64,000 nt of DNA from a virus. Taxonomy: Duplodnaviria > Heunggongvirae > Uroviricota > Caudoviricetes. Below the pieces are notes generated by a model. That model was not told the DNA's origin and did not search any database. It saw only the letters and a program-made list of their open reading frames with translations. Positions 1 through 53,991 of the stretch are shown here, piece after piece (the first letter of the stretch is position 1; each line of letters begins with the position of its first letter). The stretch lies in IMG/VR virus record IMGVR_UViG_3300028833_006001, positions 1 to 64,000 of that record; one strand, 5' to 3'. The translations under genes were made by a program, and so were the position numbers.

Positions 1-252
1 TTAATCATTACTTGATGTATTATCATCATTTTCTTCATCATCATAGTCTACTTCTACTGTTGAAAATTTACTATTTTCATCAAGACCAGCAATATTCATA
101 AATTCCTTAGTTTCTTTTGCTTTTCTACCATCAACATTATTAAGCATAGCTCCATCAGGAATAAGCCAAGCTAACTTTTCAGAATCAGTTATCTTTTCAA
201 CATCAAAAGTAAGACCAGTTACTTTTGTAAATAATTCTTGTTTTGTAGCCAT
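1..252 (-). CDS. small acidic hypothetical protein (83 aa)
   Basis: Complete ORF with start and stop. The C-terminus is a D/E-rich tail. I recognise no motif. Confidence 0.3.
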   Translation of the reverse strand: MATKQELFTKVTGLTFDVEKITDSEKLAWLIPDGAMLNNVDGRKAKETKEFMNIAGLDENSKFSTVEVDYDDEENDDNTSSND

Positions 253-295
253 TTTATATTATATATTTTTTTACTTTATATATAAAAATAAAACT

Positions 296-1549
296 TTAAA
301 ATAGTTCAAGTTGAACAACATTACTAGCATTAACAAGAGGTATCTTCATTACTTCTAAAAATCTATTAATAGGATCAATAACAGTCTTTTGCCATTGTGT
401 AAGTTTATCCATTTTAGGTGCCCAAGAAGGTAATTCACCAGCAGGAAAACCAAAATATCCTGTATCATTCTTTCCAAGACCAGTTCTTATATTATAATAC
501 TTAATTTTACCAGCATAAAATTTAAGATGATCTTCTCCATTTTTATGTGCTAAATAGTTAAATCTTGCAACAGAATGAACAGATACTGGACATTGTTTTC
601 CAAGAATAAGTTCTGTTGTATCATTTATAACATATTTTTTATAATCACCAGTACCAATACTTTGTGAAATATCTTCTATAGGAGCTTGATAAAATTGTCT
701 TCTATATTCTGATAATTTATCATTAAAGAACATAATATATTCTTCTCTCTTTTCTGGTGTTGAATCATCAAAGTCAAACATAAGACTTTTCATCAAATCA
801 GAAAGAATAGTTCTACAAAGTTTAGGTGTTGTTGATTTAATAATTTCAATACCAGTTCCAGATACTTTTGGTTTTTCATAGAAATTACCTTTACTGAATA
901 CAAGTCCTTTAAGATACTTTTTCTTAGCAAGATAAATACCAGCTTTAGAAATAGTTTCTAGCTCAAATTCATGAATACTATGTCCATGACGAGGTTCATA
1001 TATTTCTTCACACCATTTAGTATTCTGCTTATCAAGAAATTCTTTATTGAATTTAAGAATAAAATCTGTTTTCTTTCTATCAGTATCAAATTTAGCTTGA
1101 CTCTCTGGAGTCATTGCTTGAAATAATGTACCATATGTTGTATAAACAGAATCAGTATCAGAATATATTGAAATTGTTTGTTGACGATACCAATCATGTT
1201 TACTTTCATCAAGTTCAAAACCAAATTGTTCCCACAAATCTTTTCTTTCCCAAAGTGTTTCATGGAAAAAGTTTTCAAGATTTGCCCACATAGTTTTTGT
1301 AAGGTGACGACATTCACCAGTAATATCACCAGCTAATGACAAATTAAAGAAATAAAAATATTGATTAGCAGCAGCACCATAAGCAGCATTACCTAATGCT
1401 TTACATGCCATTTCAAGAAGCCAATACTCTTGACGTAAAATTGTTACTTCTTCTTTAAATGCTTTAAGTTCTTCCAGATTCATTTGATATATATCTTTAT
1501 CTGGAAAATGTTCTTTCATTAATTGAACAATGTCTTCAGAAAAATTCAT
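296..1549 (-). CDS. Family-B DNA polymerase, C-terminal fragment (palm motifs B and C plus thumb); T4 gp43-like
   Basis: Motif B is KALGNAAYGAAAN (K..N..YG). Motif C is SIYSDTDSVY (DTDS). A KKKYLKGL segment and EIIKSTTPK align to T4 gp43 KAKKRYAL and ETQQSSTPK. The ORF begins only about 48 aa before motif B. The N-terminal exonuclease and palm-A half is absent from the adjacent upstream DNA. Confidence 0.88.
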   Translation of the reverse strand: MNFSEDIVQLMKEHFPDKDIYQMNLEELKAFKEEVTILRQEYWLLEMACKALGNAAYGAAANQYFYFFNLSLAGDITGECRHLTKTMWANLENFFHETLWERKDLWEQFGFELDESKHDWYRQQTISIYSDTDSVYTTYGTLFQAMTPESQAKFDTDRKKTDFILKFNKEFLDKQNTKWCEEIYEPRHGHSIHEFELETISKAGIYLAKKKYLKGLVFSKGNFYEKPKVSGTGIEIIKSTTPKLCRTILSDLMKSLMFDFDDSTPEKREEYIMFFNDKLSEYRRQFYQAPIEDISQSIGTGDYKKYVINDTTELILGKQCPVSVHSVARFNYLAHKNGEDHLKFYAGKIKYYNIRTGLGKNDTGYFGFPAGELPSWAPKMDKLTQWQKTVIDPINRFLEVMKIPLVNASNVVQLELF

Positions 1550-1615
1550 CTTTCAAATTTATAGGTTGTATTTGTAATATTAAAATAGAAAAACAAATGA
1601 ATTAAATTCATTGGC

Positions 1616-2557
1616 TTAATAATTCAAATATAAACTATCATAAACAATATCTGTAGGATTAGTATTTACAGACTTTGATCTTAATTTTTTAAAAGATGAA
1701 TGTCCACTATCTACATAAACATGACGAGTATAAAATTCTCTTACATTACATGTTCTATCATCTTTTCCAGAAGTACCATCATAAGATAAAAGTATTTTAA
1801 CATTTTTCTTAGATAACTCTTCTATAACATCATACATATGTTCTGAATTAAATGTATCAGCCATATAATACATACTTCCAGTATTTTCATATGGTGGATC
1901 CATATAAATTAAATCTCCTTCATGAGCATCTTTAATTATATCATCATATGAACCACATATAAATGTTATTTTATCTTTAATAGGTTCAATAACTGAATAC
2001 CAAGAATCTAATACTTTTTCAAGTTCTTCTGGTTTAATACCATATCTTCCACCAACATGAAATGGTGTATTGAATTTACCACTTGGATTATATCTTATAA
2101 GACCATTGAAACATGTTCTAGAAATCCAATAAAGAAGTTTTGCTCTTTCTGGATCATCTTCACTAAGACTATTATATTTTGCTCTATTCTCATAATATAC
2201 TGGTTGAATTAACTTAATATCTTCATTAGTTAATTCTTTAGCATCTTTATAATCAACTTTACTACGAAGTTTATCATAATTTTCAGTATAATAATCTAAT
2301 AGTTCATCTCTATTATTTTTTAATAAATTCCAAATATTCATAAGGTCTTTATTAAGATCTGAACATACAATTTTATTTACTTTAATATTTCCAAGAGCTA
2401 TTTCATTTAATAGTTCATGAAGAACAGAACCACCACCAAGAAATGGTTCATAATATGTATCTATTTCCTTAGGAAATTGATGTACTATATATGGAGCCTG
2501 TTTTCTTTTAGAACCGCTCCATTTTATAAAAGGTTGTTTACTGATATTTACTAACAT
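1616..2557 (-). CDS. dam: DNA N6-adenine methyltransferase (Dam-like, D12 class)
   Basis: IKWSGSKRK and YYEPFLGGGSV form the Dam N-terminal AdoMet motif. The catalytic DPPY is in IYMDPPYENTG. Confidence 0.85.
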   Translation of the reverse strand: MLVNISKQPFIKWSGSKRKQAPYIVHQFPKEIDTYYEPFLGGGSVLHELLNEIALGNIKVNKIVCSDLNKDLMNIWNLLKNNRDELLDYYTENYDKLRSKVDYKDAKELTNEDIKLIQPVYYENRAKYNSLSEDDPERAKLLYWISRTCFNGLIRYNPSGKFNTPFHVGGRYGIKPEELEKVLDSWYSVIEPIKDKITFICGSYDDIIKDAHEGDLIYMDPPYENTGSMYYMADTFNSEHMYDVIEELSKKNVKILLSYDGTSGKDDRTCNVREFYTRHVYVDSGHSSFKKLRSKSVNTNPTDIVYDSLYLNY

Positions 2558-2558
2558 A

Positions 2559-3449
2559 TTATTTAATTAAATCACTTAATTTTATTATCCTTATTTTACA
2601 TATATCATATAATCTTTCATATACTACTTTATTAAGACCTTGATATATTGTATCAAGTAAATCCATATCCATTTTATAATTATTAATTAAGAATTTATTT
2701 AATGCTTCTGCAAAATTATTAATATATTCTTCATCATAATATAAAAATTTCATTAATCTTATTACTGATTTAAAGAATTCTGGATGAGCTTCAATAAATT
2801 CTTTAGAAATATAATCATAAGCATGAAAATCAAACTTCTTTTTTAATACTTCTTCAGCAGCTTCTTTTGTTTTAAATATAAACTGACCATCATAATCAGA
2901 ATATATCTTATCATTCATAATTATGATATATTTATTCGTAATAAAATCAGATAATTTATCATTTAAATAAAGATTTCTAACAGAACGTTGTAATGCATCT
3001 TCAACATTATCATCTGGTGGAGCAAAAGTGAATTTATTTAAATCTCTTTTAATTTCCTCATGTTCATCTTTAGGAAATGCATTCTTATTTACTTCATCAT
3101 CACTTTTACAATTATCATATAACTCTTTAGAATCACCACCAAATGAATATTTCCATTCATCAATAAGTTGATTTACTAAATTACTTTCAAAATATTTATT
3201 GAAGGCATTATATAAATCTTCTATTAATCTATCAACTTCTTCTTTAATATATTCTACTGGCTTTTCTCCTTTAGGTGTAATATCTTTTGGTGTAGACATA
3301 GCAAGAGACAATAAATCTCCTTTTAATTTATCTAATTCATTATTTGCAGAAGTTTCAGCAGATTTTGCTTCATATACTGATTCTATATCAACATTATCAA
3401 AATAAAGAATTGGTTTTCTTAATCTTATTTCTGTACCATTTGAACTCAT
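2559..3449 (-). CDS. hypothetical protein (296 aa)
   Basis: Long ORF tightly coupled (2-nt gap) to the dam stop. No recognisable motif. Confidence 0.4.
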   Translation of the reverse strand: MSSNGTEIRLRKPILYFDNVDIESVYEAKSAETSANNELDKLKGDLLSLAMSTPKDITPKGEKPVEYIKEEVDRLIEDLYNAFNKYFESNLVNQLIDEWKYSFGGDSKELYDNCKSDDEVNKNAFPKDEHEEIKRDLNKFTFAPPDDNVEDALQRSVRNLYLNDKLSDFITNKYIIIMNDKIYSDYDGQFIFKTKEAAEEVLKKKFDFHAYDYISKEFIEAHPEFFKSVIRLMKFLYYDEEYINNFAEALNKFLINNYKMDMDLLDTIYQGLNKVVYERLYDICKIRIIKLSDLIK

Positions 3450-3558
3450 AATATAATGTTTTAAACATAATTATAATTTAATATAGATTAATTATAACTA
3501 AAAAATCAATCTTCTAAAGTTTTATTTTTATATATAATATAGTGTTTTGTAAGGTAAT

Positions 3559-3951
3559 ATGGCTGGTGTAAAAATATCTAAAATGAATAAATATGAACAG
3601 ATGTTTGATGGACAAACTCTTCCAGAAGATATAAAAAATATGATACTTCCAATAAGTTTCGGAAATCAAACAATTAGTATTACTGTAGGAACTTTAATTC
3701 ATTTAATGCAACAACAAGATGATGATCAAGATATTAAAATTGATAATAATACTCAACTTATTCTACAGAATACAGAATTAATTAATTCATTAAGTGATGA
3801 AATTTATCAAAGAATTCAGCAATTACAAGAAGAAGCAGAAGAAAAACACCAACAAATGATTGATGATCAAAATATTATTGATACTGAACAAAATGAACGT
3901 ATTGGTGATATTGAGACAACAAATCTTTGGGAAATATATGGTAAAGACTAA
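3559..3951 (+). CDS. hypothetical protein, first gene of a plus-strand operon
   Basis: ORF followed by four tightly spaced co-directional ORFs. Q/D-rich. Confidence 0.4.
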   Translation: MAGVKISKMNKYEQMFDGQTLPEDIKNMILPISFGNQTISITVGTLIHLMQQQDDDQDIKIDNNTQLILQNTELINSLSDEIYQRIQQLQEEAEEKHQQMIDDQNIIDTEQNERIGDIETTNLWEIYGKD

Positions 3952-3953
3952 TA

Positions 3954-4451
3954 ATGAATAGTAATGTATTTGTAGGTAAAAACAATTCAAAAAAAATATC
4001 TGAATTAAGACCACGAGACATAATAACTATTCATCGTGATCATTCATGGATTCCAGTAGCACAGTTTGATAGTAGAATTAACTCTTATACAAACTTTGCA
4101 ATCAATATATCAGCAATAACAAATTATACTGATTCATATTCATATGAAGCAGCTTCAGCAGTTATGGCTGATTTTTCATATGAATATAAATTAGATGATT
4201 GGGTAAAATTACACAATTTTGGTGAAGCGGAAAATCCTGGATATATAACTAATGAAATGGATTCATTAATTACATATTCAAATATTGCTCAAAATATAGT
4301 AACATATTCATTTTCATATACTGATAAAATTCATGGTTGGCAATATTTATTTGGACACTATGATGTAAAAATTCCAGAAAGACCAGCTTATATTTATACA
4401 GAACTTGAAGAATATATAAATACAGAAGAAGGTAATAGAATTACATTATAA
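3954..4451 (+). CDS. hypothetical protein (165 aa)
   Basis: Translationally coupled to its neighbours (3-nt and 7-nt gaps). Confidence 0.4.
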   Translation: MNSNVFVGKNNSKKISELRPRDIITIHRDHSWIPVAQFDSRINSYTNFAINISAITNYTDSYSYEAASAVMADFSYEYKLDDWVKLHNFGEAENPGYITNEMDSLITYSNIAQNIVTYSFSYTDKIHGWQYLFGHYDVKIPERPAYIYTELEEYINTEEGNRITL

Positions 4452-4457
4452 TAGAAT

Positions 4458-5516
4458 ATGGCAGATGAAATTATAAATAAACTAACGATAGAACAATTAA
4501 AAGAAAATCCTCCTGTAATAGAGAAAAAGTTTATTTTAATTGATTCATCATTATATACTGATGAGGCATATGAATATCTTTTAGAGCTTATAAATGAAAC
4601 AGATTCAATAGCATTTATAAGGGATTTAAAAAAGATATATACTCATGGTGAATATTTTGGTGGAGATATTTGGGAAGAGTCATTATTTTATTTTGGTAAT
4701 TTTCAAATTTTAGATTCTAATGATGAATTAATAACATCAATTGAATCTGAAATAAGAAATGAAACATTAAGATTAAGAGGAATTGAAAATATAAAGATAA
4801 TTCCTTCTGTAGAATGGAAAAATGGTGTTAAATATAAAACAATAACATTTGGATATGATATTAAAAATTCTATACATAAAACACCAGTAACAATAGATGA
4901 TAATACAGCTGAATATAATTTAGATATAAAAGATGGTAAAATATTTATTGATAAATATATACCAATAAGAATAGAAACACCAGAATTACCATTGCTTGAA
5001 TATGATTCAGAAACATCATCATTAGAATTTAATATCAATATATTAGGAAATGATCAAGAAAAAAGAGTTATTATAACTTCTGACCAAGCGGTTATTACTC
5101 TTTCAGATGATTATAAAACAGTATATACAAATATACTTAATCCTAATATAAATGTTGAATATTTAATATTATATAGTGATTCTAAAACACAAGGTGCGAT
5201 AAATATGTATCAAAAATATGGTTTTGGTAATTTTTATTCAACAAATCAAATTTCAAAAGATACATTTAAATCTTGTGATAAATATATATCTGATGACAGT
5301 TGTAAAGGAATATTTACTTTAAATATTGGTGAAGAAGAATATGGTTGGTTCGCTTGTCCAAGTTTCTTAAAACCTAAATTTATTGATAAAGATAATAATA
5401 TTTGTGGTGGTTGGAAAAAAGATTCTTATATATATATTTATTCTATGAATATGGAATATATTGTATATAAAACAGAAAATAGTGGATTAGGATTAACTAC
5501 TTGGGAAGTTATATAA
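4458..5516 (+). CDS. hypothetical protein (352 aa)
   Basis: ORF in an operon context. No motif recognised. Confidence 0.4.
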   Translation: MADEIINKLTIEQLKENPPVIEKKFILIDSSLYTDEAYEYLLELINETDSIAFIRDLKKIYTHGEYFGGDIWEESLFYFGNFQILDSNDELITSIESEIRNETLRLRGIENIKIIPSVEWKNGVKYKTITFGYDIKNSIHKTPVTIDDNTAEYNLDIKDGKIFIDKYIPIRIETPELPLLEYDSETSSLEFNINILGNDQEKRVIITSDQAVITLSDDYKTVYTNILNPNINVEYLILYSDSKTQGAINMYQKYGFGNFYSTNQISKDTFKSCDKYISDDSCKGIFTLNIGEEEYGWFACPSFLKPKFIDKDNNICGGWKKDSYIYIYSMNMEYIVYKTENSGLGLTTWEVI

Positions 5517-5533
5517 GAAATTAATTTGATTAT

Positions 5534-6982
5534 TTGATGGCTAAATTAACTTATAATGAAATATTTACTAATGTAAGAAAATATGATGAGAACGGTGCTT
5601 ATACTGGTCTCCAAATTGCTAGTAAGTTAAATCAAAAGAATGGTCAAGATTATAAACTTATTGATGCTATTGATATTGATTGGAATGGCGCATTCTTAAG
5701 AATTACAGGATCATATATAAATAATACAGAAGATTTATTTGAGTCAATAAATAATATTGCTGATTTATCAGATCTTGAATGGATTAGAGAAAGAATAAAT
5801 ACTTTAACAGAAAATGTTGATACAATATTGTCAACATATGTTACTAAATCAGAATTAGAAGAAATTTTATCACAATATCAAAAACCAATATCTGCTGGTG
5901 AAAATATTACTATTGATGGAAATAATGTAATCAGTACTTATGGTTTAATTACTTCAGAACTTGCAAATGAATTATTTACAAAACAAACAGATTTTGATGA
6001 TTTAGTAAACCTTTTACATGAAGATTATTATACTAAATCAGAAACTGCAGAAGTAGCTGGAGAAATAACAATTGCAACAATAAATGATGTAATTATAAAA
6101 AATGCTGATGAAAGATATAATGATTTAGAAAAAATATCTAATTGGATATTATCTCAACCAGAAAGTATAACAGAAGATTTTGAAATATTTAATAATAGAT
6201 TAAATCGTATTGATGAAGCTCTTGGATATGTTATATATGATTCTGATTTAGATACTTATACATATACAAATGGTCTTTTATATGAAACCCATAATCTTCA
6301 GATTGAAACTGGAGAATTAAATGATAGAATGGTTAATCTAGAAAGTACTGTTGAATTATTTGGTGTAAAAGCAAATCAAGCATATGATACAGCAAATGTA
6401 GCTTATGATATGGCATATGATGCATATATGTCTTCTGCATCATCTACTGAAATGGCATATCAAGCATATGAAATGGCTTATACTTCTGTTATTAAAATTG
6501 GTAATAAGAGTATTAAAGAAAGATATGAAGAATTAACTAAAGAAGATATAGATTTATTAAATGAAAATCCTGATGCTATTCAAGTATATGCTATTCGTGA
6601 AGATAATCAATCAGGTATTCCTCTTCCAGATTTTTATAATCAAGATTCTGGTTTAATATACTATAAATATATTCCTTATGTAGAAGGAACTGGTATTTAT
6701 AAAGAACTTGAAGATACTCAAGAAATTGCATATGAAGCAAAAGATATAGCTATTAATTCTTTATTTAGATTACATACTACAACAAGTGGAACAACATATG
6801 CAGATTTAACATTATCTCCTAATGAAAATGATGGAACAGGACATAGAACAATTAATCTTAATATAGATGAAGCACAAATAAATAAAGATAATGGTGAAAT
6901 TGAACAAGATGGTTTAATTACAACATTTTCATTAGCTAATACTATATCATATATATCTTCATTTGAAATTATTGAAACTTAA
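5534..6982 (+). CDS. hypothetical protein with AYD/AYE heptad-like repeats; possible fibrous or structural protein
   Basis: The segment NQAYDTANVAYDMAYDAYMSSASSTEMAYQAYEMAYTS repeats an xAY(D/E)xA unit. A fibrous fold is inference only. Confidence 0.35.
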   Translation: MMAKLTYNEIFTNVRKYDENGAYTGLQIASKLNQKNGQDYKLIDAIDIDWNGAFLRITGSYINNTEDLFESINNIADLSDLEWIRERINTLTENVDTILSTYVTKSELEEILSQYQKPISAGENITIDGNNVISTYGLITSELANELFTKQTDFDDLVNLLHEDYYTKSETAEVAGEITIATINDVIIKNADERYNDLEKISNWILSQPESITEDFEIFNNRLNRIDEALGYVIYDSDLDTYTYTNGLLYETHNLQIETGELNDRMVNLESTVELFGVKANQAYDTANVAYDMAYDAYMSSASSTEMAYQAYEMAYTSVIKIGNKSIKERYEELTKEDIDLLNENPDAIQVYAIREDNQSGIPLPDFYNQDSGLIYYKYIPYVEGTGIYKELEDTQEIAYEAKDIAINSLFRLHTTTSGTTYADLTLSPNENDGTGHRTINLNIDEAQINKDNGEIEQDGLITTFSLANTISYISSFEIIET

Positions 6983-15171: not shown

Positions 15172-15378
15172 TTAGATACCATATACTCTATTCTGAAGAA
15201 TTTTATATATTTTTTCAGGATCATCATCTTCTCTTATATATCTATCATACCATCCACTATATTGAATAAACCATCTTAAATGTACAACACAATGTTCAGT
15301 TTTACAGATAAATATACTTTGTTCTATTTCCTCTTTTGTAGGAGTAAGTTCAGTTAAATATTCTTTTACTTTTATCAT
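15172..15378 (-). CDS. small protein downstream of uvsW (UvsW.1-like position)
   Basis: 68-aa ORF overlapping the helicase stop by 4 nt. In T4 a small uvsW.1 gene follows uvsW in the same position. Confidence 0.4.
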   Translation of the reverse strand: MIKVKEYLTELTPTKEEIEQSIFICKTEHCVVHLRWFIQYSGWYDRYIREDDDPEKIYKILQNRVYGI

Positions 15379-17189
15379 ACATTTTTAACAATTATATTAT
15401 AATCATATTTATTTTTCTTATAAATCTTTATTTTTTCAAGTCCTTGACGATATATAGATTTAGTAGAAATACTTTCATCAAAACAATCGATAAAATCATA
15501 TACAATATATTTATCTTTCAATTTACTAAGTCCAAGTCCACGACCTAAAGATTGCATATTAATTGTACCAGATTTAAATGATTCAAATAATACACCAAAA
15601 CAAAGATTTGAAAGAGTAATACCAGTTCCTATACAACCATATGAAGCGACAAGTATACAATTATTATTTTCTTTCAGAGTTTGTTTTATAGCATCTCTTT
15701 CTTTTGATTTTGTCTTACCATGAATAATACATACAATTTTATCTGGCATTCTTTTCTTTATTTCATCAGCAACATACATAAGATATTCTGTATGATGAGC
15801 AAGAACAAGTGTATTATATGGGCAAATACTTAATATATCATTACAAAGAATATCAATTCTTTTAGACATAAAATGTATCATCATTTTCTCAACTACAAGA
15901 TTATTTGTACTTGTTGAGTCTTTTATTTGTTTCATAAGTAATTCAATATACTTATCTTCTTTTTCTTTATCATTGAGATCTTGATTGTTATAAATTTCTC
16001 TTTTTGATAATAGAAGACCATATGGGAATTGTTTTTCATATTGAATTAAAAACTCTGGATTCTTAAGTAAAACTTTTTCCTTCTTCTTTTTATTTTGTTT
16101 TGTAATCTTTTCTACTTCAACAAATGGAGATAAAGCATATTCTGCACATTTTATAAAAAGTTTCTTTTGACTATCTAAGTCATTTACATAATTTATTCTG
16201 AACTGATTAATCTCAATATCAGAAATATATCCTTCATCCATTAATTCTCTTGGAGTAATCTCTTGTATTTTTGCACCAATAAGAGCATGAAGACAATATC
16301 TTTCTATTGTTTTTTCTTGAGGAAGTGTACCAGTCATACCAAAAGCAATTTTTACTTTATTCATAAATGGTTGAGATATGATGTTCTTTATTTGTGCTGC
16401 TGTAGCACGATGAACTTCATCTACAAATACACAATCAAAATCATCAAAGAAATGAGGATTATATTTCTTATTTGACCTATCTAAGAATTTAATAAGGCTT
16501 TGGAATGTACCTACAGTAAGATTAGCACTTTCAACAAGTTTACCACCTGACCATATACATTCAGTATTAAAAAACTCAGCATAATCATTAAAGTCATCAT
16601 ATGCTTGCTTTACAAGATCAATTGATGGAACAATCATAAGTATTTTCTTAACACCAAGATATTCCATACAATACCTGAATATCATATATGAAATAAGAGT
16701 CTTACCAGCACGAGTAGCAAGCTGTGAAAGAGATTTATTCCACTGAATAATTTTATATGCAGCTTCATATTGATATGGTCTAGGTTTTATAGAAAGATTC
16801 CAAGAGTCAACAATTTCTTTGAATTCATTAAATGAATGTTTCATCTTTCTCTTAAATCTATCTGGATCAAGACCATCATAAGGAATCTTATTTGTCTTTA
16901 AAAATTTATATATAACTTGCCAAAGTCCAATACTACACCATAATAATTGCTGACCAGAAGTTTGAACATAGTCAAATATAAAATCTTGTGTAAATCTTGG
17001 ACCTTTATATGTAGGTAAAAAACAAATAGGATCAGTAAGATTTATATGTTTTTTCAATAAATCAAATACATGATGCTTTACCCATTTTTTAACATCTTTT
17101 TCGAATACATTAATATATTCATCTGGAGTTAAATCACATTTTAGGAATAAATATCTTGAATCTGTATCTGAAAATTTAAAATGAATCAT
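15375..17189 (-). CDS. uvsW: SF2 DNA helicase, T4 UvsW-like
   Basis: Walker A is LATRAGKT and Walker B is VFVDEVHRA. The C-terminal ILVASYGCIGTGITLSNL and SLGRGLG align closely with T4 UvsW IIIVASYGVFSTGISVKNL and TIGRVLR. Confidence 0.78.
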   Translation of the reverse strand: MIHFKFSDTDSRYLFLKCDLTPDEYINVFEKDVKKWVKHHVFDLLKKHINLTDPICFLPTYKGPRFTQDFIFDYVQTSGQQLLWCSIGLWQVIYKFLKTNKIPYDGLDPDRFKRKMKHSFNEFKEIVDSWNLSIKPRPYQYEAAYKIIQWNKSLSQLATRAGKTLISYMIFRYCMEYLGVKKILMIVPSIDLVKQAYDDFNDYAEFFNTECIWSGGKLVESANLTVGTFQSLIKFLDRSNKKYNPHFFDDFDCVFVDEVHRATAAQIKNIISQPFMNKVKIAFGMTGTLPQEKTIERYCLHALIGAKIQEITPRELMDEGYISDIEINQFRINYVNDLDSQKKLFIKCAEYALSPFVEVEKITKQNKKKKEKVLLKNPEFLIQYEKQFPYGLLLSKREIYNNQDLNDKEKEDKYIELLMKQIKDSTSTNNLVVEKMMIHFMSKRIDILCNDILSICPYNTLVLAHHTEYLMYVADEIKKRMPDKIVCIIHGKTKSKERDAIKQTLKENNNCILVASYGCIGTGITLSNLCFGVLFESFKSGTINMQSLGRGLGLSKLKDKYIVYDFIDCFDESISTKSIYRQGLEKIKIYKKNKYDYNIIVKNV

Positions 17190-17307
17190 GTATAATTTTT
17201 ATAAATATATATTAAAATAGTAAAATATATTTATAAAATACAAATTTAAATAAATCGTCCTGGATGAGTTTATTTACTAAATATGTACAGAACATCGGAA
17301 AATATTT

Positions 17308-20215: not shown

Positions 20216-20269
20216 AAATGTTTGTTTTTTAATTACATATATAATATAGTATATTTTTTAAAAAATTCA

Positions 20270-23997: not shown

Positions 23998-24100
23998 TTT
24001 TTATATTTGTAATATATTTATTATTTTTTTCAATTAATAGAATTAAACATAACTTCTATAATTTAATTAAAAATAAAACTTTTTAGTCGTAAAGATTTAA

Positions 24101-24140
24101 AAATAAAAATCCATAGTCTCACGACTATGGATTTTTTCAT
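24101..24140 (-). terminator. strong rho-independent terminator after the major capsid gene
   Basis: Perfect 12-bp stem AAATCCATAGTC-TCAC-GACTATGGATTT flanked by A and T runs. A second small hairpin (TGCGA-GGTAAG-TCGCA) lies just upstream. Confidence 0.8.
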
Positions 24141-24198
24141 CATACGATGTGAATTATATATAGAGTGCGAGGTAAGTCGCATTTTATATATTCTAAGA

Positions 24199-25932
24199 TT
24201 AGATAAGGCCAAATTCTGAACCTACTGTGAATGTGAAGTACTGTGTTTCTGGGAAGAAACCAGCATCAACAATAGCATATCTTGAGTTAACAAGCATCTT
24301 AGGAGCCATTGTACCTTCAGCTGTGATAGATACTGTATCAGCAAGAATGTAAGGCATAAAGATTACACCAGGTTCGTTACCGTTACCCTTTCTACCAACG
24401 CAAACTCTTGTATCATCCCAATCCATATAAGGATCAACATAAACTTTAAGACCTGCGATTGTACCACTCATGAATAAGTTCTGTGAACCATCCTGTGCGA
24501 AGTTGTTTACCATAGGAGCAACTACATAACCACTAACATCCTGAAGAGCTGTAGCAACCTGAGCATTTGTAACAACCCATGTTGGTCTACCTCTACGTCC
24601 AGTTACCTGGATAAGGTTAGCAGCAGCAAGAAGTTTAGAACCAATTCTTCTCTGACGAGTGTGAAGATTTTCAGCACTTGTATTAACTTCTGCATTCTTG
24701 ATTGTTCCCCAATCACCCTTATGTTCAACACCATAAACATCCTTGAATGTCTTGATTGGCTGAGCAGCCATTGTGCTATCAGATGTACCCATCCAAAGGT
24801 TAAGGTCTACACCCTGATAAACTTTCTGATGAATAGCGTTAGTTACACCAAGAGCAAATACATGTTCAAGAATTCTAGCGTTAATTGACTGAGTAATTTC
24901 GTTCTGCATAGCTTCCATAACTTTAGCAACAGCATCAACACCATAAAGAGGAAGATCCTGGAGTTGCTGTCTTGTTACAGTACCTGTAACTTCATATGAA
25001 CCCATCTGAACCCATTTGCTGAATAATCTAAGACCAAGTACATTACCTGTACCAGTTTCATTTTCAGCTCTTGTCATGCTTCTCTTTTCACCTGTTGCGA
25101 AGTTTGCGAAACCGTCAACGAAATCAACCATTGTCTGAGCGAAATCAACTGATGTTACATTACCAGTAGCAACACCGCTAACAACTGCAGGATTTACACC
25201 ATCGAAAAGATCTGCAACAGCCTTATTAACATCACCAGCTTTACATTCTTTAACAGCAACGATAAGACCGCTATCCATTCTACCAAGCTGCTTGAATTCA
25301 CCCTTAAATGTTACACCATTACCAACAATAGTAATTGCTCTTTCAGCTGCTGGAGCTTCTGCCTTTGCTCTAAGAGCTGCAGCATCACCGTCGAAGCCAA
25401 GGAATTTAACATAAAGAGGTTTGTTTTCTGCGCCTTCACCAACACCGTCAAGACCAGCAACTTCGTTTCTTCTACCCATCTTACCACCAGCATATGGGAA
25501 GTCCATATAAGTTAACATTGCCCAAGGACCTTTTGCAGGAATAACTGGAACAAGTTCAAGACCGATTGTAAGAAGTGCTACGTTAAGAGCCATAGGAAGA
25601 GTTGATACAGGAATATCACCACTACCAACTGCTTGTTTGAAGAAGTCACCAGTACCACCCATTGGAACCTGTCCGTTAGGAGCATAACCAGGTGCCATAG
25701 GATTACCCATACCAAGAGTATTAAGAGGGGTTGCATAAAGAGGTGAAACACCCTGTGCAGGAGCTACCTGACCACCGATATTAGCGCCACCAACACCAAG
25801 CATAGATTCATGAATTTCATGAATAGCTGCATACTGTGATACCCAGTTTAACTTCTCATTATCTGTAACGTTAAAGTTTTCCTTTAACATTTTTGTCCAC
25901 ATCTGTGTACCATTCTGTTCGTTAATAAACAT
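24199..25932 (-). CDS. major capsid protein (T4 gp23-like)
   Basis: VVTNAQVATALQDVSGY matches T4 IIASRNVVNVLASVDTG. GTIAGLKVYVDPYMDWDDTRVCVGRKGNGNEPGVIFMPYILAD matches GVLGGKYRVYIDQYAKQDYFTVGYKGPNEMDAGIYYAPYVAL. The N-terminal propeptide has an I-H-E|S site resembling the T4 L-T-E|AEIGG cleavage site. Confidence 0.88.
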   Translation of the reverse strand: MFINEQNGTQMWTKMLKENFNVTDNEKLNWVSQYAAIHEIHESMLGVGGANIGGQVAPAQGVSPLYATPLNTLGMGNPMAPGYAPNGQVPMGGTGDFFKQAVGSGDIPVSTLPMALNVALLTIGLELVPVIPAKGPWAMLTYMDFPYAGGKMGRRNEVAGLDGVGEGAENKPLYVKFLGFDGDAAALRAKAEAPAAERAITIVGNGVTFKGEFKQLGRMDSGLIVAVKECKAGDVNKAVADLFDGVNPAVVSGVATGNVTSVDFAQTMVDFVDGFANFATGEKRSMTRAENETGTGNVLGLRLFSKWVQMGSYEVTGTVTRQQLQDLPLYGVDAVAKVMEAMQNEITQSINARILEHVFALGVTNAIHQKVYQGVDLNLWMGTSDSTMAAQPIKTFKDVYGVEHKGDWGTIKNAEVNTSAENLHTRQRRIGSKLLAAANLIQVTGRRGRPTWVVTNAQVATALQDVSGYVVAPMVNNFAQDGSQNLFMSGTIAGLKVYVDPYMDWDDTRVCVGRKGNGNEPGVIFMPYILADTVSITAEGTMAPKMLVNSRYAIVDAGFFPETQYFTFTVGSEFGLI

Positions 25933-26011
25933 TGTAATTTATAAAAATTTATTTGTTATTTTTTGTAATTATATTCTTGTTATTTATCTTATGATAAATG
26001 TTTCGTTTATT

Positions 26012-41208: not shown

Positions 41209-41666
41209 TTTTCTATTAAAATTAAATGATTATAATCTGTTGTTAAATTTTCCATATATAAACCATATTTATTACCATATAGTCTAATAATATTTGTTTC
41301 TTTTAATAAATCTTTACGTCTTTTTAATTTATTACCAACAAAATAATCAACTTTATTTTCATCAATTATTATATCAATATCAATATCTGAGTTGTTTTCT
41401 AAATTATAATTTCTATTTACATAATACTTTAATTTCTTATTTCTAATATCATTATTTATTACCCATTCAGTTATATAAGTTGTAAAAATATTTTGAGGTA
41501 AATCATCAATTGATGTTGATTTTTTTATTTTATCTAATACTATTTTATTAGTAGTATCATCATTAAAAAATTTAACTATATTAATAACTAAATCATCAAT
41601 ATTTGATAATTTTGTATTTTGATTAAGATGAAGTTTCTCAATTATATATTTATTTATATTTTTCAT
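41205..41666 (-). CDS. leader-family protein (MKNINKYIIEKLHLNQNTK)
   Basis: Conserved leader. Confidence 0.6.
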   Translation of the reverse strand: MKNINKYIIEKLHLNQNTKLSNIDDLVINIVKFFNDDTTNKIVLDKIKKSTSIDDLPQNIFTTYITEWVINNDIRNKKLKYYVNRNYNLENNSDIDIDIIIDENKVDYFVGNKLKRRKDLLKETNIIRLYGNKYGLYMENLTTDYNHLILIEK

Positions 41667-47687: not shown

Positions 47688-47750
47688 TTCTATTACTATA
47701 TATTTTTATTATATAATATAGAAATGTCAATATAATATATTCAATTTAAA

Positions 47751-50789: not shown

Positions 50790-51248
50790 TTAATATACTC
50801 CTTTAAAATAATATATATTTAATTTACCAGGTTTTTTAACTAATAAATTATTTGATGGATATTTTTGTCCTAAGGAACTTTCATCGGAATATATTTCTAT
50901 ACCATTTTTATTATATAATTCTTTAAATCTTTTTTTATCTTGTTTATATAATCTAATAGCATCTTCATCTTCAATAACACTTAATGATACTCCATCTGGT
51001 AAATTAGCATGTTCTGCACAAAATGTCATAATATCTTTTTTAATTTTAAATGTTTTAATCCATGTTTCTAATACATCAGCAATATCATAATTATCTTTAA
51101 AATTCAATATATATAACATTAAATCAACAAATTTATTTTCATGTAATTTAAATTTAGTAGTAAATTGTTCTGGATCTTTTACTTTTGTTTCTTTATTAAG
51201 ATGAAGTTTTTCTAATATATATTGACTTAAATTATTCATATTATTCAA
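50790..51248 (-). CDS. leader-family protein (MNNLSQYILEKLHLNKETK)
   Basis: Conserved leader. The start may be the fourth Met. Confidence 0.6.
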   Translation of the reverse strand: MNNMNNLSQYILEKLHLNKETKVKDPEQFTTKFKLHENKFVDLMLYILNFKDNYDIADVLETWIKTFKIKKDIMTFCAEHANLPDGVSLSVIEDEDAIRLYKQDKKRFKELYNKNGIEIYSDESSLGQKYPSNNLLVKKPGKLNIYYFKGVY

Positions 51249-51831
51249 ATATTTCTTTAATTATATTTATTAATTTATTCCATGCTTGAGTAGTAAATCT
51301 AGATTTATTAATTGCTTCATTAAAATCATCTTTATAATATTTAAATTCTTTAATACCATTTAAAACTTTTGTTAAAACATCATCAGTTAATTCATATATA
51401 GGATGATTACCATATAAACCACCACTTTTATATTTTTCTGATTTATATTCTAATTCATACTTATAATATGAAGCTACACTAAATGATTTTTTACCATTAC
51501 TATAAAATAATCTAATATATATTAAAACTTTATCAGATGGTAAATTACCCATATTATTTTTAGCTGGTTTAGTAATATCAAATTTTAAATCAATATGAGA
51601 AGTATTATTTGGATTTTTAAAATAAAGATAATAATTACAATATTTATATCCATTATCATTAATTGAAGAAGAAGTTTCTTTTTCAAAATTATCACTATTA
51701 TCTTTATATCCTATATCTGAAAATGCTTTATCTAATTCTTTTATTATATAATCAAAATCATTTATATTTTCTATTTCTGTATCTTTATTAAGATGAAGTT
51801 TTTCTATTATATATTGTTTAAGACTTTCCAT
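51241..51831 (-). CDS. leader-family protein (MESLKQYIIEKLHLNKDTE)
   Basis: Conserved leader. Confidence 0.6.
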   Translation of the reverse strand: MESLKQYIIEKLHLNKDTEIENINDFDYIIKELDKAFSDIGYKDNSDNFEKETSSSINDNGYKYCNYYLYFKNPNNTSHIDLKFDITKPAKNNMGNLPSDKVLIYIRLFYSNGKKSFSVASYYKYELEYKSEKYKSGGLYGNHPIYELTDDVLTKVLNGIKEFKYYKDDFNEAINKSRFTTQAWNKLINIIKEIFE

Positions 51832-52721: not shown

Positions 52722-53255
52722 TTATAACTCAATTGGAGTAATATATTTATTTTCTTCATCTGTTTTTAATAAATTAAGATTTTCTGGTTCTTCTTCTCCT
52801 CTAACAATATAATCATAACATATATTATATCCATCATTAGTCAATGCATATATATAATATATTCCTCTTGATCCAGAATTAAGAGCATGTATTTCAAGAT
52901 GTCCACCTTTAATTAATACATTATATCCTAAATCTTTACCAGTAATAATTTTATCAGTAATTTTATCTAAATCATCACTAAAATTATAAATAACATCATC
53001 AGTAATATCTTTTTTAATAGAACCTAATGAATCAAATTGAAATGCAATAAATCCTGTATAGTTTTTATTTATTGTATCAAGTTCAGATTTACAATCATCC
53101 CAAAATATATCTCTATCTCCTTCTTCTTCAACATCTGCATCGTCATCATAAAGATATACTTCATCATTAGGAGATATATTATCAATATTAAATTGATGAT
53201 GTATATCTTTATTAAGATGAAGTTTTTCTATTATATATTGACTTAAATTATTCAT
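52722..53255 (-). CDS. leader-family protein (MNNLSQYIIEKLHLNKDIHH)
   Basis: The start is taken at the internal Met that restores the leader (the ORF track extends to 53321). It overlaps the upstream gene stop by 8 nt. Confidence 0.55.
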   Translation of the reverse strand: MNNLSQYIIEKLHLNKDIHHQFNIDNISPNDEVYLYDDDADVEEEGDRDIFWDDCKSELDTINKNYTGFIAFQFDSLGSIKKDITDDVIYNFSDDLDKITDKIITGKDLGYNVLIKGGHLEIHALNSGSRGIYYIYALTNDGYNICYDYIVRGEEEPENLNLLKTDEENKYITPIEL

Positions 53256-53991
53256 GATACCATTTTGGTGGATTTTTTTGTAAAGGACATTTATTAAACA
53301 TAAATTCCATATTTTTAACATTACTTACATCCCATTTAGATATATCTACATTAAATGGAGAATATATAAACATTTCACCCATATTTTTAACATTACTTAC
53401 ATCCCATTTAGATATATCTCTATTAAATTTAGAACTAGAAAACATTCTATTCATATTAGTAACATTACTTACATCCCATTTAGATATATCTCCATTGAAT
53501 TCTGATTTTCTAAACATATCATTCATATCAGTAACATTACTTACATTCCATTTACTTATATCTTCATTAAATTTAGAATCAGCAAACATATAAATCATAT
53601 TAGTAACATTACTTACATTCCATTTACTTATATCTCCATTAAATTTAGAAGTATAAAACATCATAGACATATCAGTAACATTACTTACATTCCATGATGA
53701 TATATCTCCATTGAATTTTGAATCTCTAAACATACTTTCCATATTAGTAACATTACTTACATCCCATTCACCTATATTTCCATTAAATTTAGATTTATAG
53801 AACATATAAGACATATCTTTAACATTACTTACATCAATATCATTTAAATCAGCATTATTTCCTCTTTTTTCAATAAGTTTTTCTATTAAAGATTTAAGCT
53901 CATCCTTATCTTTAGGATGATAATTATATAATGTTTTTATATTCTTATTTAAATGAAGTTTTTCTATTATATATGTTTTAAATTCTTTCAT
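53248..53991 (-). CDS. leader-family DUF285/BspA-type LRR protein
   Basis: MKEFKTYIIEKLHLNKNIK, then HPKDKDELKSLIEKLIEKRGNNADLNDIDVSNVKDM and about 7 WNVSNVT(D/N)M repeats. Paralogue of 28931..29977. Confidence 0.7.
   Translation of the reverse strand: MKEFKTYIIEKLHLNKNIKTLYNYHPKDKDELKSLIEKLIEKRGNNADLNDIDVSNVKDMSYMFYKSKFNGNIGEWDVSNVTNMESMFRDSKFNGDISSWNVSNVTDMSMMFYTSKFNGDISKWNVSNVTNMIYMFADSKFNEDISKWNVSNVTDMNDMFRKSEFNGDISKWDVSNVTNMNRMFSSSKFNRDISKWDVSNVKNMGEMFIYSPFNVDISKWDVSNVKNMEFMFNKCPLQKNPPKWYHE

What the first reader, a model, noticed from the sequence alone, without database searches (positions are those of the whole stretch)
296..2557. Stand-alone C-terminal half of a family-B DNA polymerase next to a Dam methylase: split or truncated gene 43
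- The ORF at 296..1549 starts only about 48 residues before polymerase motif B. It contains motif C and the KKKY thumb region.
- The whole exonuclease, N-terminal domain and motif A are missing. The DNA immediately upstream encodes a Dam methyltransferase and an unrelated 296-aa protein instead.
- Split gene 43 (43A/43B) is known in a few T4-like phages. Here the partner fragment is not adjacent.
- So either the polymerase is assembled from distant fragments, or this is a decaying pseudogene.
Basis: partly seen in the sequence, partly recalled or inferred. Interest (0 to 1): 0.6.

Follow-up and report, generated by a model that had tools for sequence, protein, structure and literature searches.

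The report
Split DNA polymerase with distant partner
The 417-residue gene is a working subunit of a phage replicative DNA polymerase cut in two at the tip of its "fingers"; the other half lies about 200 kb away in a close relative's genome, and both halves carry the same short upstream leader sequence.

Summary
ORF 296..1549 (-) encodes 417 aa of a T4/RB69-type family-B polymerase, from mid-fingers to the C-terminus. Motif B, motif C and KKKY are present. The exonuclease domain and motif A are absent. It is not a pseudogene:
- dN/dS is 0.09 against a 95% relative.
- Catalytic residues are invariant in 50 homologues.
- Hundreds of stand-alone homologues of 411-425 aa exist.

The break maps to the fingertip (about RB69 residue 507/508), where the known 43A/43B splits lie. 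A sister clade has an unsplit 926-aa protein, and this ORF aligns to its residues 513-926 from its own Met1.

Matching stand-alone N-halves (about 513 aa) are equally abundant. One lies on another contig of the same metagenome sample, with the same dN and dS. In a 90% relative, both halves sit on one 473-kb contig, same strand, about 197 kb apart.

The 46 nt before both ATGs are near-identical and occur nowhere else in 337 kb of two relatives' contigs (one carrying this phage's likely partner). In another relative a single homing-endonuclease gene separates the halves. The Dam gene is an incidental insertion.

Verdict: a new variant of a known kind, of moderate interest.

The parts
296..1549 (-). 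C-terminal subunit ('43B-like') of a fingertip-split family-B DNA polymerase, 417 aa. It holds fingers helix P with motif B, the palm with motif C, the thumb and the C-terminal tail.
   Evidence: Aligns to residues 513-926 of the unsplit 926-aa homologue at 67.5% identity. dN/dS 0.091 against L005.
1376..1402 (-). Motif B, KALGNAAYG (equivalent to RB69 K560/N564/Y567/G568).
   Evidence: K50, N54, Y57 and G58 are invariant in 50 homologues.
1148..1165 (-). Motif C, YSDTDS (catalytic Asp pair, equivalent to RB69 D621/D623).
   Evidence: Y129, D131, T132, D133 and S134 are invariant.
914..925 (-). KKKY (KKRY-type primer-binding motif at the palm/thumb border).
   Evidence: K209, K210, K211 and Y212 are invariant.
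299..313 (-). C-terminal pentapeptide QLELF. It resembles the bacterial beta-clamp-binding consensus QL[SD]LF (from memory, not tested).
   Evidence: F417 is invariant; Q413 and L416 are at least 90% conserved. The unsplit homologue ends in QLSLF.
1550..1595 (-). 46-nt leader, TGTTTTTCTATTTTAATATTACAAATACAACCTATAAATTTGAAAG, immediately before the ATG. A near-identical copy precedes the N-half gene.
   Evidence: - 96-98% identity to the 50 nt before the N-half ATG in L107/L109/L110/L111.
- The 24-nt core is unique in the window; 0.00 matches expected by chance.
- It occurs once per locus, always before a PolB half.
- In all IMG/VR, 8 of 10 hits are before PolB halves of this lineage.
1596..1612 (-). 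Weak hairpin AATGAAT-TTA-ATTCATT after the Dam stop codon, followed by TGTTTTT. It is terminator-like and separates Dam from the polymerase gene.
   Evidence: Read directly. Stronger hairpins sit at the same place in L130 and before the N-halves. The consensus scanner did not call it because it has too few G-C pairs.
1616..2557 (-). Dam-type (D12 class) N6-adenine DNA methyltransferase, 313 aa. It is a neighbour and not part of the polymerase system; it is an accessory insertion.
   Evidence: PF02086, E=2.9e-38. phrog_56, E=2.8e-60. DPPY at aa 220. Absent between the 296-aa gene and the C-half in L130; also absent in L146 and L147.
2559..3449 (-). 296-aa protein of unknown function, the conserved upstream neighbour of the C-half.
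   Evidence: No Pfam or PHROG match. Conserved next to the C-half in L004, L005 and L130, and as a 304-aa form in L147.

Best explanation
ORF 296..1549 encodes the C-terminal subunit of a two-polypeptide replicative family-B (T4 gp43-type) DNA polymerase.

**Where the break is**
- The ancestral gene is broken at the tip of the fingers domain, about RB69 residue 507/508.
- The N-subunit (about 513 aa) carries the N-terminal domain, the 3'-5' exonuclease, palm motif A and the first finger helix. It is encoded by a separate gene far away.
- In a 90% relative that gene lies about 197 kb away on the same strand of a 473-kb genome. For this phage it most likely lies on a 168-kb contig of the same sample.

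**How it works**
- Each half has its own start and stop codon and is translated on its own. There is no intein or frameshift.
- The halves are inferred to associate non-covalently through the two antiparallel finger helices and a composite palm. Motif A Asp comes from one chain, and motif B and the motif C Asp pair from the other.
- Neither half alone could polymerise.

**Expression**
- Both genes are preceded by a near-identical 46-nt leader specific to the two PolB halves.
- This leader is inferred to give the two distant cistrons matched transcription and translation signals.

**Origin**
- The split probably arose by insertion of a free-standing homing-endonuclease gene. Such a gene is still present between the halves in a relative.
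- Later rearrangement separated the halves.

**Shown:** sequence anatomy, conservation, selection, co-occurrence of the halves, and the shared leader.
**Inferred:** assembly, activity, the role of the leader, and the order of evolutionary events.
For: **1. The ORF is the C-part of a PolB.**

**2. The break point is exact.**
- The ORF aligns from its Met1 to residue 513 of the unsplit 926-aa protein of L006/L094.
- The N-halves end at the matching place...EIDRLIKEKENEK*.
- 513 + 417 aa compares with 926 aa unsplit, so nothing is missing or added.
- Residue 512/513 maps to RB69 ~507/508 in the fingertip.

**3. Both halves are under equal purifying selection.**

| Comparison | dN | dS | dN/dS |
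|---|---|---|---|
| C-half, window vs L005 | 0.046 | 0.507 | 0.091 |
| N-half, L110 vs L107 | 0.046 | 0.501 | 0.092 |

The two comparisons pair the same two samples. Their equal divergence argues that these contigs are the partner halves of the same two genomes.

**4. The two halves are about equally common.** 618 C-type and 641 N-type clusters were found (at different cut-offs, E<=1e-5 and E<=1e-20). Nearly all are stand-alone, at 411-425 aa and 506-519 aa.

**5. Both halves occur on single contigs.**
- ERZ14209546 NODE_2 (473,479 bp): C at 269,008-270,261 (+) and N at 467,471-469,006 (+).
- ERZ27257205 k141_4850879 (223,578 bp): N, a 371-aa gene, then C.

**6. The intervening gene is a homing endonuclease.** It matches DUF7487 and PHROG 3339 'homing endonuclease', E=8e-20.

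**7. The leader is shared.** It is 45/46 identical between window and L005, against an expected neutral identity of 0.63 (P~2e-8).

**8. Some stand-alone C-halves carry an in-frame mini-intein at motif C** (P0096). This is expected only in a translated, essential gene.

**9. There is experimental precedent.**
- Fingertip-split 43A/43B of Aeromonas phage 25 co-purify and are active (PMC2988022, citing Petrov 2010).
- Pfu polymerase split near the fingertip keeps full activity (PMC3061061).
Against: - No experiment shows that these two polypeptides assemble or are active.
- The link between the window and the L110 contig rests on same-sample origin, matching dN/dS and the shared leader. It does not rest on a contiguous assembly.
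- The complete genome was not readable, so a second, full-length polymerase elsewhere cannot be strictly excluded.
- The leader has no predicted RNA structure (z=0.14), no Rfam match and no sigma-70 consensus call. Its mechanism is therefore unknown.
- The AF2 model is poorly confident around motif B (residues 52-67 have pLDDT below 50). This fits a missing partner but proves nothing.
Confidence: 0.85

Rival explanations
1. Decaying pseudogene: a truncated remnant of gene 43 left behind after a deletion or rearrangement, and no longer functional.
For: The ORF lacks the exonuclease domain and motif A. No partner lies within 62 kb upstream or 10 kb downstream.
Against: - dN/dS is 0.091 with dS 0.51.
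- Motif B, motif C and KKKY are invariant in 50 homologues that go down to 64% identity.
- Length and start are conserved in more than 100 clusters.
- The N-half is under identical constraint.
- An in-frame intein is kept in some C-halves.
Confidence: 0.02
2. The two halves are joined covalently after translation (split-intein trans-splicing), or at the RNA level, so the mature enzyme is a single chain.
For: - Split-intein 'fractured' PolB genes do exist in the sister clade. L096 has Int-N, a homing-endonuclease gene and Int-C at motif C.
- Fractured genes are documented in metagenomes (PMC2677866).
Against: - At the fingertip break there is no extra sequence. The N-half ends and the C-half starts collinearly with the unsplit protein.
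- There is no C/S/T-initiated Int-N and no ...HN Int-C block.
- Each gene has its own ATG, stop and leader.
- No Rfam intron match was found near the gene.
Confidence: 0.02
3. The C-half works on its own or with another partner (for example as a clamp-tethering, DNA-binding or regulatory protein). Replication would then be done by a different polymerase encoded elsewhere in the ~470-kb genome.
For: - The whole genome was not inspected.
- Jumbo phages can carry more than one polymerase type (PMC7824862).
- The two genes are about 197 kb apart.
Against: - Catalytic residues that are useless without motif A are invariant.
- The N- and C-halves show the same dN and dS, equal abundance and the same private leader.
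- Only one N-half or one C-half was found on each of the 168-kb and 169.6-kb contigs.
Confidence: 0.08

Closest known systems
Bicistronic gp43 (43A/43B) of T4-related Aeromonas/Acinetobacter phages 25, 44RR, 31, 65 and 133 (Petrov et al. 2006, 2010; summarised in PMC2988022 and PMC3061061)
   Same: - T4/RB69-type family-B polymerase broken within the fingertip between the two finger helices.
- Two ORFs with their own start and stop codons.
- In one case a homing-endonuclease gene sits in the gap.
- Non-covalent assembly has been shown for phage 25.
   Different: - There the two cistrons are 2 bp to 3 kb apart and adjacent. Here they are dispersed: at least 62 kb apart in this window and about 197 kb in a 90% relative.
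- Here each half has its own copy of one 46-nt leader.
- The host genomes are AT-rich huge phages (about 470 kb), only ~20-25% identical to RB69 gp43.
- The homing endonuclease in the relative is a DUF7487 / PD-(D/E)XK-like type, not a Seg (GIY-YIG) type.
Split PolB of Methanothermobacter thermautotrophicus (Kelman et al. 1999, as cited in PMC3061061)
   Same: A family-B polymerase encoded by two genes far apart (85 kb) and assembled from two polypeptides.
   Different: - It is archaeal.
- The break is in the palm, about 83 residues C-terminal to the fingertip position.
- No shared leader has been reported.
PolB gene pairs annotated in jumbo phages: Sphingomonas phage PAU (gp105 + gp110) and Chryseobacterium phage MA9V-1/-2 (_192 + _196)
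   Same: - Same architecture: an N-half of ~490 aa ending about 90 aa after motif A, and a C-half of ~405-425 aa starting about 50 aa before motif B.
- They are the closest cultured relatives (25% identity).
   Different: There the halves are 2.4-3.5 kb apart, on the same strand, and separated by 3-4 small genes, including a TnpB in MA9V-2.
'Fractured genes' with a split intein plus a free-standing homing endonuclease (Dassa et al. 2009, PMC2677866)
   Same: A replication gene is cut into two ORFs with a homing-endonuclease gene between them. This arrangement is present at motif C in the sister clade (L096).
   Different: The window's break has no intein halves. The polypeptides are not expected to be ligated.

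Membership tests
Family-B DNA polymerase, T4/RB69 gp43 type | Motif B KxxxNxxYG on finger helix P | tested here: met
   KALGNAAYG at aa 50-58; invariant in 50 homologues.
Family-B DNA polymerase, T4/RB69 gp43 type | Motif C Y(G/S)DTDS with the catalytic Asp pair | tested here: met
   YSDTDS at aa 129-134, aligned to RB69 D621/D623.
Family-B DNA polymerase, T4/RB69 gp43 type | Palm + thumb fold similar to a solved PolB | tested here: met
   AF2 model with pLDDT 83.5 and pTM 0.69. The top 50 Foldseek PDB hits are all RB69 gp43, E~1e-13, TM (query-normalised) 0.52-0.59.
Family-B DNA polymerase, T4/RB69 gp43 type | Exo I-III motifs and motif A (DxxSLYPS) in the same polypeptide | tested here: not met
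   These are absent from this ORF and from the whole window. They are present in the separate N-half L110: DIET, GWNSYGFD, YNAIDS and DDFASLYPS. The ORF is therefore a subunit, not a complete PolB.
Fingertip-split (bicistronic) gp43, 43A/43B type | Break lies between finger helices N and P (the fingertip) | tested here: met
   The break corresponds to residue 512/513 of the unsplit homologue. That maps to about RB69 507/508, between R482/K486 and K560.
Fingertip-split (bicistronic) gp43, 43A/43B type | A partner N-half ORF exists in the same genome | tested here: inconclusive
   - Not in the 64-kb window.
- Present on a 168-kb contig of the same sample, with matching dN/dS and leader.
- Present on the same 473-kb contig in a 90% relative.
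Fingertip-split (bicistronic) gp43, 43A/43B type | The two cistrons are adjacent (2 bp to 3 kb apart, per PMC3061061) | tested here: not met
   The gap is at least 62 kb on one side and at least 10 kb on the other in this phage. It is about 197 kb in the 90% relative. Adjacent forms (N, homing-endonuclease gene, C) exist in a 66% relative.
Fingertip-split (bicistronic) gp43, 43A/43B type | The subunits co-purify and reconstitute polymerase activity | not testable with these tools
   Known only for phage 25 gp43A/B (PMC2988022) and for engineered split Pfu (PMC3061061).
Split-intein 'fractured' gene | Int-N (C/S-initiated) at the end of the first ORF and Int-C (...HN + C/S/T) at the start of the second | tested here: not met
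   The termini are collinear with the unsplit protein and have no extra residues. Compare L096, where ...DTD|SIRENS... and ...LVHN|SVYTTYG are plainly present.
D12-class (Dam) N6-adenine DNA methyltransferase (neighbour gene 1616..2557) | MethyltransfD12 domain with the DPPY catalytic motif | tested here: met
   PF02086, E=2.9e-38, covering aa 13-277. MDPPY at aa 219-223.

The most novel reading that the evidence does not exclude
The private 46-nt leader copied in front of both distant polymerase cistrons may be an autoregulatory operator. The assembled heterodimer would bind the 5' leader of both mRNAs, as T4/RB69 gp43 binds its own translational operator. This would hold the two subunits at matched, self-limited levels even though their genes are ~200 kb apart.

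A second point concerns the unsplit 926-aa gene of the sister clade. It is nested among split lineages, so it would be a secondary 're-fusion' of a split gene after loss of the homing endonuclease.
Probability: 0.15. Interest if true: 0.65.

Novelty: new variant of a known kind. Interest (0 to 1): 0.45.

Why it matters
- **Scale.** The finding turns what looked like a gene fragment into evidence that a very large, uncultured clade of huge phages (contigs up to 473 kb) replicates with a two-piece family-B polymerase.
- **Annotation.** Genome annotators should expect two half-size PolB genes anywhere in such genomes. They should not call them pseudogenes or score the genome as lacking a polymerase.
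- **An evolutionary series within one family.** The same family contains:
  - an unsplit gene;
  - halves separated by one homing-endonuclease gene;
  - halves dispersed by ~200 kb;
  - a split-intein 'fractured' version.
- **A testable question.** The shared leader raises the question of how a virus keeps two distant genes for one enzyme in step.

Tried and rejected
- **N-half in the window or flanks.** tblastn with the MA9V-2 N-half, an 82-sequence HMM against six-frame translations of the window and L003-L006, and tblastn with the unsplit L006 protein found nothing.
- **Close cultured relative.** Megablast of window 1-6000 against GenBank phages gave no match.
- **Leader as structured RNA.** The fold is no better than shuffles (MFE -7.9 kcal/mol, z=0.14). 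There is no Rfam hit at E<=1 apart from two chance hits elsewhere.
- **Leader as a sigma-70 promoter.** The consensus scan did not call it on the - strand, and promoter-like sites are not enriched overall (24 against 35 expected).
- **Leader as a generic promoter.**
  - The 24-nt core, allowing 3 mismatches, is unique in the window.
  - TATAAATTTGAAA is not enriched.
  - The short CTAT[AT]TTA box is not enriched overall (24 against 21). Several copies do sit 25-35 nt before ATGs.
- **Homing-endonuclease remnant next to either half.** tblastn with the L126 endonuclease against the window, L110, L107 and others found nothing.
- **Overlap of the window with the N-half contig.** No portal, terminase or TelA homologue is in the window, and the only shared DNA is the leader and short dispersed repeats.
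- **Neighbour annotation.** Ten flanking ORFs have no PHROG match.
- **Literature.** Petrov 2010 (PMID 19896487) is not held. Searches found no paper describing split PolB in megaphages.
- **Contig matching by length.** This first failed for the closest relatives because only cluster representatives are listed. It was solved with the listing of cluster members.
Full report
**1.

- ORF 296..1549 on the minus strand encodes 417 aa.
- It matches Pfam DNA_pol_B (E=5e-8). It matches PHROG 1918 'DNA polymerase' over its whole length (E=7e-47). It matches RB69 gp43 residues ~614-851.
- An AlphaFold2 model built on 50 homologues has mean pLDDT 83.5. Its 50 best PDB matches are all RB69 gp43 (E~1e-13).
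- Upstream lie 66 nt of spacer, a Dam-type methyltransferase (1616..2557; PF02086, E=3e-38; DPPY motif) and a 296-aa ORF with no family match.
- No N-terminal, exonuclease or motif-A PolB sequence is present in any frame of the 64-kb window.
- The identical protein, with the same boundaries, is called on two independent metagenome assemblies. An assembly frameshift is therefore excluded.

**2. It is a subunit, not a remnant**

- Against a 95%-identical relative (L005), the gene has dN 0.046, dS 0.507 and dN/dS 0.091.
- A database search returned 618 related protein clusters. The top 120 go down to 64% identity, and nearly all are stand-alone proteins of 411-425 aa that start at the same Met.
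- In an alignment of 50 of them, every catalytic residue is invariant.
- Some stand-alone C-halves carry an in-frame mini-intein at the classical motif-C site (P0096). That makes sense only for a translated, essential gene.

**3. Where the break is**

- A sister clade has an uninterrupted 926-aa polymerase (L006/L094 and six other IMG/VR contigs).
- The window's protein aligns to its residues 513-926 at 67.5% identity, starting exactly at the window protein's Met1.
- Stand-alone N-halves end at the matching point...EIDRLIKEKENEK*.
- 513 + 417 aa compares with 926 aa unsplit, so nothing is lost and nothing is added. There are no intein blocks at the junction.
- Through the unsplit protein, the junction maps to about RB69 residue 507/508. 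This is the tip of the fingers domain, between the helix that carries R482/K486 and the helix that carries K560/N564.
- This is the region where the known natural splits of T4-related gp43 lie (43A/43B in phages 25, 44RR, 31, 65 and 133). An engineered split of Pfu polymerase lies just N-terminal to the tip, within the adjacent finger helix, and leaves activity intact (PMC3061061; PMC2988022).

**4. The partner**

Stand-alone N-halves of 506-519 aa are as common as the C-halves: 641 clusters, with more. They carry exo I-III, motif A and the first finger helix.

For this phage:
- The exact C-half occurs in JGI sample 3300031992.
- The same sample holds a 168,026-bp viral contig with a stand-alone N-half (L110).
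- The 95% C-half relative (L005, sample 3300028591) has its counterpart N-half in its own sample (L107).
- L110 and L107 are 94.5% identical, with dN 0.046, dS 0.501 and dN/dS 0.092. These values are the same as for the C-halves.
- The N-half contig carries the T4-type portal and TelA. A relative's N-half locus (L131) also carries a terminase fragment. The window has no homologue of any of the three. The window carries the gp23-type capsid protein and the prohead protease.

For relatives with both halves on one contig:
- In the 90% relative, both halves are on ENA contig ERZ14209546 NODE_2 (473,479 bp). The C-half is at 269,008-270,261 and the N-half at 467,471-469,006, both on the plus strand and about 197 kb apart.
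- More distant relatives show the same state:
  - PAU gp105 and gp110 are 2.4 kb apart.
  - Chryseobacterium MA9V-2 _192 and _196 are 3.5 kb apart, with a TnpB gene between them.
  - In the 735-kb LR756501 the halves are on opposite strands and hundreds of kb apart.

**5. A shared private leader**

- The 46 nt before the C-half ATG (window 1550-1595) read TGTTTTTCTATTTTAATATTACAAATACAACCTATAAATTTGAAAG.
- They are 96-98% identical to the nucleotides before the N-half ATG in L107, L109, L110 and L111.
- The same pairing holds in the 90% relative (L130 against L131).
- The 24-nt core is unique in the window even with 3 mismatches allowed; 0.00 matches are expected by chance.
- It occurs exactly once in each locus that has it, always before a PolB half.
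- In all of IMG/VR it hits ten contigs. Eight are PolB halves of this lineage. These include a single hit each on the 169.6-kb and 168-kb contigs.
- Between the window and L005 the leader is 45/46 identical, although synonymous sites have diverged by 0.5 per site (rough binomial P~2e-8).
- Each copy is preceded by its own, different hairpin plus a T-run.
- I could not assign a mechanism:
  - There is no stable RNA fold.
  - There is no Rfam family match.
  - There is no sigma-70 consensus call.
  - The CTATTTTAA box at its 5' end recurs 25-35 nt before several other ATGs in the window and may be a general promoter element. It is not statistically enriched.
- The remaining ~30 nt appear specific to the two polymerase genes.
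- Inference: the leader gives the two distant cistrons matched expression signals.
- A more speculative reading is an autogenous translational operator, as in T4/RB69 gene 43 (reviewed in PMC3014915, not read here).

**6. How it probably arose**

- In a 66% relative (223.6-kb contig), the halves are separated by exactly one gene. Its start overlaps the N-half stop, and it ends 10 nt before the C-half ATG.
- That 371-aa protein matches DUF7487 and PHROG 3339 'homing endonuclease' (E=8e-20). It ends in a PD-(D/E)XK-like block.
- A neighbour-joining tree of the N-region was rooted on PAU and MA9V, which are themselves split. It places the unsplit clade inside the split lineages, next to this form with the endonuclease between the halves.
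- This suggests one of two histories: an old split with later re-fusion, or repeated splitting at one endonuclease target site. The tree has no support values, so the question is left open.
- In the window's lineage the endonuclease gene is gone and the halves are dispersed.
- The C-half keeps the same neighbourhood in 76-90% relatives. That neighbourhood is a block transcribed in the opposite direction on one side, and small genes and a GrpE-like gene downstream.
- The Dam gene is present only in the window, L004 and L005. It is absent in L130, L146 and L147. Its adjacency is therefore incidental.

**7. Comparison and verdict**

- The gene works like, and is best filed with, the fingertip-split (bicistronic) gp43 polymerases. 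One defining habit is not met: the cistrons are not adjacent. In that respect it resembles the Methanothermobacter split PolB (85 kb apart), which is broken at a different place.
- It is not a split-intein fractured gene, although a sister lineage has exactly that arrangement at motif C.
- Novelty: a new variant of a known kind.
- What is new:
  - the scale (hundreds of lineages of huge phages);
  - the ~200-kb separation;
  - the duplicated private leader;
  - the co-existence of four gene architectures in one family.
- Assembly and activity remain inferred from the precedents of phage 25 gp43A/B and split Pfu.

Noticed in passing
L096 10001..14554 (IMGVR_UViG_3300028805_004760); also L091, L104 and L125: In a sister lineage the polymerase is unsplit at the fingertip but 'fractured' at motif C.
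- ORF1 (776 aa) ends ...YSDTD followed by an Int-N (SIRENS...).
- ORF2 (420 aa) is a free-standing DUF7487-like homing endonuclease.
- ORF3 starts with an Int-C (...ILVHN) followed by SVYTTYG....
This is a split-intein arrangement like that of Dassa et al. 2009.
   Followed up: partly
window 1616..2557 compared with L130 9044..10001: The Dam methyltransferase is an insertion/deletion difference. In the 90% relative, the 296-aa gene is followed directly by the polymerase C-half with no Dam. Dam is also absent in the 82% and 76% relatives (L146, L147).
   Followed up: yes
window 299..313 (-): The polymerase ends in QLELF (QLSLF in the unsplit relative). F417 is invariant, and Q413 and L416 are at least 90% conserved. 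This resembles the bacterial beta-clamp-binding pentapeptide QL[SD]LF rather than the T4/RB69 gp45-binding tail. The resemblance is recalled from memory and was not tested.
   Followed up: no
NJ tree of N-halves; L087, L090, L092, L094 and L095 against the split loci: The unsplit 926-aa polymerases form one tight clade nested among split lineages, and the outgroups (PAU, MA9V) are also split. This suggests either re-fusion of a split gene or repeated splitting at one endonuclease target site. The tree has no bootstrap support.
   Followed up: partly
window 30361-33122, 41571-41666, 51174-51814, 53201-53258; L110 15068-15213: Short (~50-120 nt) repeats of 75-92% identity sit at gene boundaries inside tandem arrays of small genes (128-171 aa; for example 30433..33122). 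They are shared with the N-half contig. They are probably conserved ends of a paralogous small-gene family.
   Followed up: no
window 3478-3486, 17212-17220, 20241-20249, 47713-47721, 1580-1588 (all on the - strand): A CTAT[AT]TTA box lies about 25-35 nt before the ATG of several minus-strand genes, including the helicase at 15375..17189. It also occurs before polymerase halves of distant relatives. It is a candidate phage promoter element, although its total count is not above chance (24 against 21).
   Followed up: partly
In that phage the polymerase is both fingertip-split and intein-bearing.
   Followed up: partly
window 97..238, compared with L003 1597..1735: The 83-aa ORF just downstream of the polymerase gene (window 1..252) has a 77%-identical DNA copy at the start of the next gene, which lies beyond the window edge. 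This is a tandem partial duplication.
   Followed up: no
window 24001..26000: GC content rises to 38%, against ~25% for the window, over the gp23-type major capsid gene (24199..25932).
   Followed up: no
L002 4516..5682 (Chryseobacterium phage MA9V-2): In this cultured relative, a TnpB (RNA-guided endonuclease family) gene sits in the gap between the two polymerase halves. A mobile element therefore again occupies the split site.
   Followed up: no
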